Virus record (IMG/VR): IMGVR_UViG_3300033145_003080
Location: 85,038 to 149,037 of that record
From: a virus
Length of the DNA: 64,000 nucleotides
Reading direction: 5' to 3' (one strand)
The notes below the pieces were generated by a model, which was not told the origin of the DNA, ran no database searches, and saw nothing but the letters and a program-made list of their open reading frames with translations. Both the position numbers and the translations under genes were made by a program. Of this stretch, positions 49,623 to 50,099 are shown piece after piece; the first letter of the stretch is position 1, and every line of letters begins with the position of its first letter.

Positions 49623-50099
49623 CTAATTGCCTTTTACCTTTTGAGAAAGAATAATCCTTAACACATCACCGGTCGGACGTTCAAGCTTTTCAGAAAGCTC
49701 AACCTTGCGAGTTCCGATACGGTATTCATATGCAGGGCTACCGTCAGCATGGGTAAAAGTTTTTTTCTTATCCATGTCAAGTTGGTCAACAACTTCCTGG
49801 ATCGTCATACCAGGAGTAGCGGGTAATTTCTCAATTCCACCGCCTGCACCCATCCGAATAAGTTGCACTTCGAATGGTTCATCGTTTCCTTTGGTCTTTG
49901 TTCCAAGAAAGACCTTCTCATTATTATAAAGCCGGGTCGTTTTTTGTACCTCTACACCATTACGGGTTATGGTGTAATTTTCAGGAAGCGTGACGTTAGC
50001 AGCGTCAAACAGCCCCTGAACAGTTGGGTTGTCAGAAATCTCAAGGTCTTTGATCTCTTTGCCCATCTGAATGAGTTTTACGCAAATCATATATAGCAA
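49623..50099 (-). CDS. Tandem ubiquitin-like (beta-grasp) protein; two Ubl domains each ending KxKGN
   Basis: Domain 1 VKLIQMG...TVQGLFD...ITRNG...VFLGTKTKGN (aa 1-72); domain 2 VQLIRMG...TIQEVVD...IILSQKVKGN (aa 73-158); adjacent to E1 and JAB genes. Confidence 0.82.
   Translation of the reverse strand: MLYMICVKLIQMGKEIKDLEISDNPTVQGLFDAANVTLPENYTITRNGVEVQKTTRLYNNEKVFLGTKTKGNDEPFEVQLIRMGAGGGIEKLPATPGMTIQEVVDQLDMDKKKTFTHADGSPAYEYRIGTRKVELSEKLERPTGDVLRIILSQKVKGN

What the first reader, a model, noticed from the sequence alone, without database searches (positions are those of the whole stretch)
49623..50099. Polyubiquitin-like precursor: two divergent Ubl domains, each capped K-x-K-G|N
Seen: aa 1-72 end FLGTKTKGN and aa 73-158 end ILSQKVKGN; both start with V-x-L-I-x-M-G. 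The conserved Gly (G71, G157) is masked by an Asn in both domains. Established: E1 needs a free C-terminal Gly, and JAB enzymes mature Ubl precursors by cutting after Gly. Inference: the operon's JAB cuts KG|N twice, releasing two different modifiers from one gene and gating the pathway, much like eukaryotic polyubiquitin genes. The single-Gly KG terminus differs from the canonical GG.
Basis: partly seen in the sequence, partly recalled or inferred. Interest (0 to 1): 0.8.

Follow-up and report, generated by a model that had tools for sequence, protein, structure and literature searches.

The report
Phage polyubiquitin-like tag precursor gene
An uncultured 149-kb phage carries its own ubiquitin-style tagging kit, and its tag gene joins two different ubiquitin-like units that each end in Lys-x-Lys-Gly-Asn, which resembles a eukaryotic polyubiquitin gene except that the working end is probably asparagine, not glycine.

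Summary
It has two beta-grasp domains, ending KTKGN (res 65-69) and KVKGN (res 151-155). Both motifs are invariant in 18 homologues, and the linker after the first is variable.

The model matches linear di-ubiquitin and ISG15. The gene lies in a conserved phage cassette: two E2-like proteins, a JAMM/JAB peptidase, a ThiF-type E1 and the di-Ubl.

The wider family has forms with 1, 2, 3 and 4 units, and every unit has the same tail. In one relative, two units are identical in protein but differ at 31 synonymous sites, as in polyubiquitin genes. The internal unit is predicted to dock its tail into the E1 active site (0.77 against 0.00 for the best control).

So the precursor reading is supported, at about 0.6. 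The cut site KG|N is not. Asn aligns with the second Gly of the KGG variants. About a third of family members end exactly at Asn, and whatever follows it is variable. The mature end is therefore more likely ...K-G-N, and the window's second unit needs no unmasking.

Cleavage, targets and biological role are untested. The scan has noted the same kind of gene on other phage DNA. I found no paper describing it.

The parts
49623..50090 (-). Di-Ubl gene, 155 aa plus stop codon; start ATG 50090
   Evidence: model; fold match to di-ubiquitin and ISG15
49884..50090 (-). Ubl unit 1 (res 1-69), a short beta-grasp domain
   Evidence: Predicted to dock on the E1 with its tail in the adenylation site
49884..49898 (-). 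Tail 1, K65-T-K-G-N69; proposed internal processing site, most likely after N69
   Evidence: Invariant in 18 homologues. Column statistics
49626..49883 (-). Ubl unit 2 (res 70-155), a longer beta-grasp domain with an inserted helix and loop
49626..49640 (-). Tail 2, K151-V-K-G-N155, followed directly by the stop codon
49568..49588 (-). Terminator-like hairpin (9 bp stem plus T-rich tail) just after the Ubl gene
50131..50892 (-). ThiF-type E1, 253 aa from ATG 50892. GxGxxG at res 24-29, D117, invariant C180
   Evidence: Pfam ThiF 69.4 bits against a cut-off of 28.1; alignment A3; PDB hits to UBA6, UBA5, ThiF and MoeB
50894..51877 (-). JAMM/JAB peptidase, 327 aa from ATG 51877. E44 and H111-x-H113-x7-S121-x2-D124 are invariant
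   Evidence: Alignment A2. Weak PADLOC JAB hit. Relatives match Prok-JAB just under the cut-off
51885..53009 (-). E2-like protein, 374 aa. The UBC-like domain lies within res 160-374, with H315, G320 and C323
53027..54970 (-). Second E2-like protein, 647 aa. The paralogous UBC-like domain lies within res 393-647, with H551, G556 and C559. The N-terminal 390 aa have no assignable fold
49159..49539 (-). Small downstream gene, 126 aa, function unknown. It keeps this position in relatives but is poorly conserved, so whether it belongs to the cassette is uncertain
   Evidence: 32-38% identity

Best explanation
The gene encodes a polyubiquitin-like precursor for a phage-borne ubiquitin-like conjugation system. 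The polypeptide carries two different beta-grasp modifiers, each with its own flexible conjugation tail K-x-K-G-N.

Proposed pathway:
- The cassette's JAMM/JAB peptidase cuts at the end of the first tail. Given that cleavage happens, I put about 65:35 on a cut after Asn69 rather than after Gly68. This frees unit 1 and unit 2. Unit 2 already ends at Asn155.
- The ThiF-type E1 adenylates the free C-terminal carboxylate. It may hold the unit on Cys180.
- The unit passes to the Cys of one of the two E2-like proteins (C323 of the 374-aa protein, C559 of the 647-aa protein). Their unrelated N-terminal regions would choose the targets.
- JAB may also reverse the conjugation.

Shown here: the folds, the motifs, their conservation, the cassette, the variable number of units in relatives, and predicted E1 docking.

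Inferred: cleavage, the thioester relay and conjugation. The targets and the benefit to the phage are unknown.
For: 1. Fold. There are two beta-grasp domains, with low model confidence only at the two tails. The best structural matches are linear di-ubiquitin and ISG15. Of 43 relatives, 20 match Pfam ThiS (best 3.7e-18) and 8 match SAMP2.

2. Both tails are invariant in 18 homologues, while the linker after tail 1 varies in length and sequence.

3. A profile search of 1.84 billion proteins found 102 representatives. Their lengths fall into classes that fit 1, 2, 3 and 4 units, and the sequences I read each repeat the tail at every unit end.

4. In relative L011, units 2 and 3 (73 aa each) are identical in protein. 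They differ at 31 of 219 nt, and all 31 changes are synonymous. This pattern is known from polyubiquitin genes. It is hard to explain for domains that hold fixed, different places in one protein.

5. The cassette [E2-like, E2-like, JAB, E1, Ubl] keeps its order in related phage contigs of 53-208 kb. Its parts recur beside the 3-unit, 4-unit, GG-ended and 1-unit forms.

6. The enzymes look intact.
- The JAMM motif is invariant.
- The E1 scores above Pfam's ThiF cut-off and has an invariant Cys180.
- The domain shared by the 374-aa and 647-aa proteins (BLASTP 3e-12) folds like E2 enzymes. All top Foldseek hits are E2s, at probability 0.72-0.99 but E of only 0.01-0.1. VIA-align gives Z about 7 over about 120 residues.
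- That domain has an invariant H-x4-G-x2-C motif, which reads HPHxxxxGxxC[LY]G in remote relatives.

7. Unit 1 alone (res 1-69) with an E1 dimer scored 0.77, against 0.00 for the best of 3 controls. That mark was reached by 58 of 80 solved complexes and 2 of 110 mismatched pairs. The three runs agree in at least 88% of their contacts, and the partner's pLDDT is at least 83. Residues 65-69 lie on the Gly-rich loop (24-29), on L115-D117 and on T142-G145.

8. JAB pre-processing of a bacterial Ubl has been shown for BilC and BilA (PMC10557695).
Against: - No cleavage data exist for any member of this family.
- In this window the two units are unlike each other, as in ISG15 or FAT10, which are not cut.
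- Bacterial Bil and Bub Ubls with two or three beta-grasp domains are treated as fixed multi-domain proteins in the literature (PMC11601603).
- Unit 2 ends at the conserved Asn with no cap, so the whole protein could be activated uncut.
- The E1-unit 1 score may reflect likeness to solved MoeB-MoaD and ThiF-ThiS complexes. It cannot tell Gly68 from Asn69 as the last residue.
- E2 assignment rests on a model of pLDDT 79 and on mid-range scores. No Pfam or NCBIfam E2 model matches.
- I know of no Ubl with a C-terminal Asn that goes through an E1-E2 cascade.
Confidence: 0.6

Rival explanations
1. It is a fixed two-domain modifier of the ISG15, FAT10 or Type I BilA kind. The 155-aa protein is activated and conjugated whole through Asn155. 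The internal KTKGN is kept because it is a hinge, or a contact for E1, E2 or JAB, or a relic of the duplication.
For: - ISG15 is among the best fold matches.
- The two domains are unlike each other.
- The D1-D2 layout is the commonest form among the representatives.
- Unit 2 is uncapped in 10 of 18 close homologues, so no processing is needed for activation.
- Multi-beta-grasp bacterial Ubls are described as fixed.
Against: - A relic or hinge would not stay invariant at four of five positions across sequences of 52-80% identity while the next residues vary freely.
- In ISG15 and FAT10 the first domain has no conjugation tail (established knowledge).
- Relatives with 3 and 4 units repeat the tail at every junction.
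- Two units in L011 are held identical by purifying selection.
- Unit 1 alone is predicted to thread its tail into the E1 site.
Confidence: 0.27
2. JAB cuts K-G|N at both sites, Asn is a one-residue mask, and the mature modifiers end in a single Gly.
For: - Known E1s act on C-terminal Gly, and JAMM enzymes cut after Gly (established knowledge; BilC).
- Gly68 and Gly154 are the most conserved tail positions (43/43).
- Yeast UBI4 ends with a one-residue Asn cap (from memory).
Against: - The Asn column is filled by Gly in the K-x-K-G-G variants. One of these ends exactly at GG, and another has RGG|RG as its last unit. A cut after the first Gly would be odd there.
- Not one of about 109 family proteins ends at K-G, while about 33 end exactly at K-G-N.
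- Caps on known Ubl precursors vary, whereas this Asn is about 90% conserved and the residue after it is not.
- K-A-N variants keep Asn while losing Gly.
Confidence: 0.2
3. It is not a protein-conjugation system. The E1 and Ubl would act as a sulfur carrier of the ThiS/MoaD type, or the E1 would modify the C-terminal Asn itself as MccB does, through adenylate, succinimide and a nucleotide adduct.
For: - Relatives match Pfam ThiS.
- The E1 is a minimal ThiF domain of 253 aa.
- MccB, an E1 homologue, acts on peptides that end in Asn and goes through a succinimide (PMC4010828).
Against: - Two proteins with an E2-like fold and an invariant His...Cys, plus a JAMM peptidase, are kept in every related cassette. 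That fits a thioester relay.
- The window's E1 has no rhodanese or other sulfur-transfer domain, and no sulfur-metabolism gene is recorded beside the cassette in three related loci.
- The E1's best NCBIfam matches are ThiF and MoeB models, all below their cut-offs.
Confidence: 0.07

Closest known systems
Eukaryotic polyubiquitin precursor genes (yeast UBI4, human UBB and UBC)
   Same: Ubiquitin-fold units lie head to tail in one reading frame, each with its own conjugation tail. Copy number varies between relatives. In a relative, repeated units are identical in protein and differ only at synonymous sites. Some members carry a short cap after the last unit.
   Different: - Here the two units are different proteins.
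- A linker of 0-6 residues follows each tail.
- The tail ends G-N rather than G-G.
- The trimming enzyme would be a JAMM metalloprotease encoded next door.
- The owner is a phage.
- Cleavage has not been shown.
ISG15, FAT10 and Type I BilA (two beta-grasp domains, conjugated whole)
   Same: Two beta-grasp domains sit in one chain of about 155 aa. ISG15 is among the top fold matches. BilA works with an E1, an E2 and a JAB peptidase.
   Different: In those proteins only the last domain carries the conjugation tail (established knowledge). Here both do, and the first tail is invariant. PADLOC gives no Bil match for any cassette protein.
Operon type 6d of Iyer, Burroughs and Aravind 2006 (the PRTRC cassette of NCBIfam) and types 6c and 6e (Bil and Bub)
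   Same: E2-like, JAB, E1 and Ubl are separate genes on a mobile element. [quoted passage not shown]
   Different: - The E1 scores 39 bits against the PRTRC_ThiF cut-off of 144.75.
- No Prok_Ub, Multiubiquitin or Prok-E2 Pfam model matches.
- The E2-like domains keep a His before the Cys, as classical E2s do, unlike type 6d.
- There are two E2 paralogues with long N-terminal extensions.
- Every unit has its own tail, and the tail ends in Asn.
Archaeal SAMP, UbaA and JAMM1 (sampylation)
   Same: A small ThiS/MoaD-like modifier works with a minimal ThiF-type E1 and a JAMM peptidase. Eight of 43 relatives match Pfam SAMP2.
   Different: SAMPs are single units that end in Gly-Gly and use no E2 (established knowledge). 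The E1 here scores 28.6 bits against a cut-off of 450 for the UbaA model.
MccB and MccA (microcin C7 biosynthesis)
   Same: An E1-family adenylating enzyme acts on a substrate whose last residue is Asn; MccA is MRTGNAN (PMC4010828).
   Different: The MccB substrate is a heptapeptide and the product is a peptidyl-nucleotide, with no E2 or JAB involved. This is a chemical precedent only. I did not test for homology beyond the shared ThiF fold.

Membership tests
Ubiquitin-like beta-grasp modifiers (ThiS/MoaD/SAMP clade) | Beta-grasp fold | tested here: met
   The AF2 model (pLDDT 85) has two beta-grasp domains. Foldseek matches di-ubiquitin and ISG15 at E about 1e-7 to 1e-8.
Ubiquitin-like beta-grasp modifiers (ThiS/MoaD/SAMP clade) | Match to a curated family model | tested here: inconclusive
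   The window protein has no Pfam, NCBIfam or PHROG hit. Of its 43 relatives, 20 match Pfam ThiS (best 3.7e-18) and 8 match SAMP2.
Ubiquitin-like beta-grasp modifiers (ThiS/MoaD/SAMP clade) | C-terminal Gly or Gly-Gly at the end of a flexible tail | tested here: not met
   Both tails read K-x-K-G-N. Asn holds the position of the last Gly in 36 of 43 aligned members, and Gly holds it in 6.
Polyubiquitin-type precursor | Head-to-tail units, each with its own complete conjugation tail | tested here: met
Polyubiquitin-type precursor | Units of identical or near-identical sequence | tested here: not met
   The window's two units show no BLASTP similarity. The feature is met only in relatives: L011 units 2 and 3 are identical, with 31 synonymous differences.
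Polyubiquitin-type precursor | Proteolytic release of monomers | not testable with these tools
   This needs biochemistry. The only support is indirect: conservation, variable copy number, and docking of unit 1 on the E1.
ISG15, FAT10 and Type I BilA (fixed di-Ubl) | Only the C-terminal domain carries the conjugation tail | tested here: not met
   The internal tail K65-N69 is invariant in 18 homologues.
PRTRC / operon type 6d | E1 reaches the NCBIfam PRTRC_ThiF cut-off, and Ubl, E2 and JAB match the PRTRC or Prok_* models | tested here: not met
   TIGR03736 scores 39.2 bits against a cut-off of 144.75. The other five proteins have no PRTRC hit and no Prok-E2 or Prok_Ub hit.
E1 / ThiF adenylating enzymes (253-aa protein) | ThiF-domain match above the cut-off, Gly-rich nucleotide loop, Mg-binding Asp | tested here: met
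   Pfam ThiF scores 69.4 bits against 28.1. G24-x-G-x-x-G29 and D117 are invariant. PDB sequence hits include UBA6, UBA5, ThiF and MoeB.
E1 / ThiF adenylating enzymes (253-aa protein) | Catalytic cysteine for a thioester | tested here: inconclusive
   C180 (in SACGASAS) is invariant. That it corresponds to ThiF Cys184 or MoeB Cys187 comes from memory and was not aligned here.
JAMM/JAB metallopeptidases (327-aa protein) | E ... H-x-H-x7-S-x2-D motif | tested here: met
   E44, H111, H113, S121 and D124 are invariant in 5 orthologues.
JAMM/JAB metallopeptidases (327-aa protein) | Match to a curated JAB model | tested here: inconclusive
   The window protein has only a PADLOC JAB hit at E 0.027. 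Relatives match Prok-JAB at 21.8-22.9 bits against a cut-off of 25.
E2 / UBC-fold enzymes (374-aa and 647-aa proteins) | UBC fold | tested here: met
   The model has pLDDT 79. All top Foldseek hits are E2s, with probability 0.72-0.99, E 0.01-0.1 and TM by target 0.4-0.5. VIA-align puts E2, UEV and RWD chains on top at Z 6-7 over about 120 residues and rmsd 3.1-3.7. The scores are mid-range.
E2 / UBC-fold enzymes (374-aa and 647-aa proteins) | Active-site His...Cys before the crossover helix | tested here: met
   H315, G320 and C323 (H551, G556 and C559 in the paralogue) are invariant in 13 sequences. Remote relatives read HPHxxxxGxxC[LY]G. The motif lies between the last strand and helix 169-177 of the model.
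E2 / UBC-fold enzymes (374-aa and 647-aa proteins) | Match to a curated E2 model (UQ_con, Prok-E2_A to E) | tested here: not met
   No hit in Pfam, NCBIfam, PADLOC or PHROGs, and no sequence hit in the PDB.

The most novel reading that the evidence does not exclude
Large phages run their own ubiquitin-like conjugation system, and its modifiers end in asparagine instead of glycine. A polyubiquitin-style precursor is cut after Asn into two different tags. One E1 then activates a C-terminal Asn, possibly with succinimide chemistry of the kind seen in MccB, and two dedicated E2-like enzymes with built-in target-binding regions take the tags on. This would be a viral polyubiquitin analogue with a new terminal chemistry.
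Probability: 0.35. Interest if true: 0.85.

Novelty: new variant of a known kind. Interest (0 to 1): 0.72.

Why it matters
Ubiquitin-like conjugation in bacteria is so far known as a host function. Examples are Bil and CBASS anti-phage defence, and the Bub and PRTRC cassettes whose roles are unknown. Polyubiquitin-type precursor genes are regarded as a eukaryotic feature.

Here a family of uncultured phages of 53-208 kb, and some probable prophages, carries a complete E1, E2-like and JAB kit. The tag gene is built like polyubiquitin, with one to four units that each have their own tail.

If cleavage is confirmed, three things follow:
- Making several tags from one gene would have arisen outside eukaryotes as well.
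- Phages would be actively tagging proteins. Those could be host proteins, for takeover or counter-defence, or their own proteins, for assembly.
- There would be a natural E1-E2 system that handles a C-terminal Asn. That is of interest for enzymology and for protein-ligation tools, since MccB is already used that way.

The proposal can be tested directly with four recombinant proteins.

Tried and rejected
- Searches that found nothing for the window's Ubl: tblastn of the Ubl against 50,697 GenBank phage records gave no match. Pfam, PHROGs, PADLOC and NCBIfam gave no usable hit for it. The only listed match was HVO_2718 at E 0.048, which I treat as noise.
- JAB and E2-like profiles against PDB sequences returned only coiled-coil noise.
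- The viral-contig scan returned only 4 loci. The word-indexed search for the 374-aa protein returned only 7 relatives.
- N-terminal 390 aa of the 647-aa protein: the Atlas gave no feature hit, and structure rows were all at TM 0.35 or below on a poor model (pTM 0.30). No fold can be assigned.
- C-terminal domain of the 374-aa protein in the Atlas: only unnamed viral clusters.
- CEHH-type E2 (Type II Bil): I considered it because of the C-x5-E-H string in the 374-aa protein. I rejected it because the paralogue lacks that Glu and His.
- PRTRC membership: rejected on curated cut-offs.
- One E2 per Ubl unit: not supported as a rule. L012 has 2 E2-like genes with 4 near-identical units, and L014 shows one E2-like gene on its 3.7-kb contig with 2 units.
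- My regular-expression count of units per protein over-counted and is not used. Six terminal tails mis-assigned by the expression were corrected by eye.
- Literature: six searches found no paper on a phage-encoded poly-Ubl or on K-G-N tails. The library lacks most subscription journals.
- A Lys-Asn isopeptide reading of K-x-K-G-N (pilin or HK97 style): I considered it and set it aside, because the E1, E2-like and JAB context explains the motif better. It was not tested.
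Full report
**What is there**

The window is the last 64 kb of a 149,037-bp IMG/VR virus record. The finding's ORF is on the minus strand.

- Residues 1-69 start V-K-L-I-Q-M-G and end K65-T-K-G-N69.
- Residues 70-155 start V-Q-L-I-R-M-G and end K151-V-K-G-N155, followed by the stop codon.
- A terminator-like hairpin follows at 49588-49568.

**Is it more than chance?**

A word-indexed search found 18 proteins (17 besides the window's own) at 52-80% identity, all from metagenomes and on contigs of up to 208 kb. 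In their alignment both tails are invariant (K65, K67, G68, N69; K151, K153, G154, N155). The residues after N69 vary and carry indels, reading D-EP, VD-EP, QD-GDP or QDPNDM.

The two halves have no detectable similarity to each other. AlphaFold2 on this alignment (pLDDT 85.4) gives two beta-grasp domains, and the two 10-residue blocks of lowest confidence are those holding the tails. Foldseek's best PDB matches are linear di-ubiquitin, ISG15 and FAT10, at E about 1e-7 to 1e-8. No curated model hits the window protein itself. Of 43 diverse relatives, 20 match Pfam ThiS (best 3.7e-18), 10 match Ub-RnfH and 8 match SAMP2.

**The neighbourhood**

The gene is the last of five tightly packed minus-strand genes.

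- **E1.** The gene at 50131-50892 encodes a 253-aa ThiF-type E1. It scores 69.4 bits on Pfam ThiF against a cut-off of 28.1. It has invariant GxGxxG, D117 and C180, and its PDB sequence hits include UBA6, UBA5, ThiF and MoeB.
- **JAB.** The gene at 50894-51877 encodes a 327-aa protein with an invariant JAMM signature, E44 and H111-x-H-x7-S-x2-D124. Relatives match Prok-JAB just under the cut-off.
- **Two E2-like proteins.** The 374-aa protein (51885-53009) and the 647-aa protein (53027-54970) share a C-terminal domain of about 215 aa (BLASTP 3e-12). It has an invariant His-x4-Gly-x2-Cys motif and a distal N..D..G.....W motif in which a Ser and a Pro are nearly invariant. In remote relatives the first motif reads HPHxxxxGxxC[LY]G, which resembles the HPN...C signature of E2 enzymes.
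  - A model of this domain (pLDDT 79) finds only E2 enzymes at the top of Foldseek. Probabilities are 0.72-0.99, but E is only 0.01-0.1.
  - A search that does not rely on Foldseek puts E2, UEV and RWD chains on top, at Z 6-7 over about 120 residues and rmsd 3.1-3.7.
  - No curated E2 model matches.
  - I therefore read both as divergent E2-like proteins, with moderate confidence.

The order VRR-NUC, about 650 aa, about 375 aa, JAB, E1, di-Ubl, about 125 aa is kept in related phage contigs of 53-208 kb.

**Precursor or fixed di-Ubl?**

A profile of the 18 sequences was scored against 1.84 billion representatives, with no length filter. It found 102 proteins. About two thirds are 137-187 aa long, as two units would be. 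Others are 67-84 aa (one unit), 204-227 aa (three units) or 293 aa (four units). In the sequences I read, every unit ends with the same tail.

These forms lie beside the same enzymes:

| Form | Locus | Neighbours |
|---|---|---|
| 3 units | L011 | E2-like, JAB, ThiF |
| 4 units | L012 (300-kb contig) | two E2-like, JAB, ThiF |
| 2 units, GG-ended | L014 | E2-like, JAB |
| 1 unit | L016 (3.18-Mb bacterial contig) | E2-like, ThiF, JAB |

In L011, units 2 and 3 are 73 aa each and identical in protein. They differ at 31 of 219 nucleotides, in 31 codons, and all the changes are synonymous. This is the classic signature of polyubiquitin genes. It is hard to explain if the units hold different fixed places in one folded protein.

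I also asked whether the internal unit looks like an E1 substrate. Unit 1 (res 1-69) with two copies of the E1 scored 0.77, against 0.00 for the best of three controls. That mark was reached by 58 of 80 solved complexes and 2 of 110 mismatched pairs. The runs agree in at least 88% of their contacts, and the partner's pLDDT is at least 83. Residues 65-69 lie against the Gly-rich loop (24-29), L115-D117 and T142-G145, which is the adenylation site. The pass may owe something to solved MoeB-MoaD and ThiF-ThiS complexes. It shows likeness, not binding.

Together these results favour a precursor. I put that at about 0.6, against about 0.27 for a fixed ISG15-like di-Ubl. The fixed reading remains possible because the window's two units differ, and because multi-beta-grasp Bil and Bub Ubls are treated as fixed in the literature.

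**Where is the cut?**

The family data point the other way.

- In a MAFFT alignment of 43 diverse members, the Gly column is G in 43 of 43. The next column is N 36, G 6, A 1. The column after that holds 13 different residues, and then gaps begin.
- The six Gly cases are K-x-K-G-G (or R-I-R-G-G, or K-V-S-G-G) variants of the same cassette. One ends exactly at ...QVKGG. Another has RIRGG|N at its internal junctions and RIRGG|RG at the end.
- Asn therefore sits where ubiquitin has Gly76.
- About 33 of 109 family proteins end exactly at Asn, as do 10 of the 18 close homologues including this window. None ends at K-G. The rest carry 1-5 variable residues after Asn, with 17 different first residues.
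- K-A-N variants keep Asn but lose Gly.

The simpler reading is that the mature modifier ends ...K-G-N, and that the cut, where one is needed, falls after Asn. I put this at about 65:35 over KG|N, given that cleavage occurs. On this reading the window's unit 2 is already mature, so JAB 'gating' would apply only to release of unit 1.

An E1-family enzyme that acts on a C-terminal Asn has a precedent in MccB of microcin C7. There the Asn cyclises to a succinimide (PMC4010828). Whether similar chemistry occurs here is open.

**Comparison with known systems**

- JAB pre-processing of a bacterial Ubl has been shown for BilC and BilA (PMC10557695).
- Iyer, Burroughs and Aravind (2006) described bacterial operons with E1, E2-like, JAB and Ubl genes. 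[quoted passage not shown]
- The present cassette fails the curated tests for those families. PRTRC_ThiF scores 39 bits against 144.75, and there are no Prok-E2, Prok_Ub or Multiubiquitin hits.
- It also differs in four respects: it is phage-borne, it has two E2 paralogues with long unrelated N-terminal regions, every unit has its own tail, and the tail ends in Asn.
- Six literature searches found no description of such a phage system. The library lacks most subscription journals.

**Earlier notes in this scan**

The scan holds notes and follow-up reports on the same kind of gene on other phage DNA, including one on a 208-kb phage. The L004/L008 contig used here is also 208 kb, but I did not check that it is the same phage.

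- Two of those reports raised the Asn-end question. My column statistics agree with them independently.
- One suggested PRTRC as the closest family. I tested that and it is not met.

**Verdict**

This is a new variant of a known kind. The targets and the biological role are unknown.

Noticed in passing
window 47931-49097 (+): A TnpB-like gene (Cas12f1-like TNB domain at 1e-20, OrfB_IS605 at 2.6e-9) lies between the small 126-aa gene and the converging structural genes. The related loci L002, L004 and L005 have no gene of this size there, so it looks like an insertion specific to this phage.
   Followed up: partly
L011:2217-2861: In this tri-Ubl gene, units 2 and 3 are 100% identical in protein (73 aa) but only 86% identical in DNA. 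All 31 differences are synonymous. This is either strong purifying selection or selection against DNA repeats.
   Followed up: yes
window 50894-51100 (-), JAB residues about 295-315: After a poorly conserved, basic linker the JAB protein ends in a conserved acidic helix motif, L-L-D-E-I-D-Q-E-I-x-x-F (alignment A2). It could be a docking peptide for another cassette protein.
   Followed up: no
L016:6001-9575: A single-unit version of the cassette lies in a 3.18-Mb bacterial contig: a 70-aa Ubl ending AKGN-S, a 536-aa E2-like protein, ThiF and JAB. Nuclease and phosphoesterase genes are nearby, so it is probably a prophage or island. The system is therefore not confined to large free phages.
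   Followed up: partly
window 50131-50892 (-), E1 residues T28, T116, T142: In the predicted E1-unit 1 complex, N69 touches T28, T116 and T142. These are Thr in the three K-G-N-type E1s I looked at (window, L011, L016) but I, V and G in the one R-G-G-type E1 (L012). They could read the Asn side chain, but there is only one GG-type example.
   Followed up: partly
window 49159-49539 (-): The 126-aa gene downstream of the Ubl keeps its position in relatives but is only 32-38% identical, far less than the E1 (67-83%). It follows a terminator-like hairpin and matched no family in any library.
   Followed up: partly
window 55016-56021 (-): Just upstream of the cassette lie a VRR-NUC-like nuclease gene (weak Pfam hit, E 0.005) and, at 55425-56021, a 198-aa gene whose counterpart in L004 carries Pfam Rv2179c-like. 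An SNF2-type helicase gene follows at 58034-59815. The cassette thus sits at the edge of the DNA-metabolism module, facing the structural genes.
   Followed up: no
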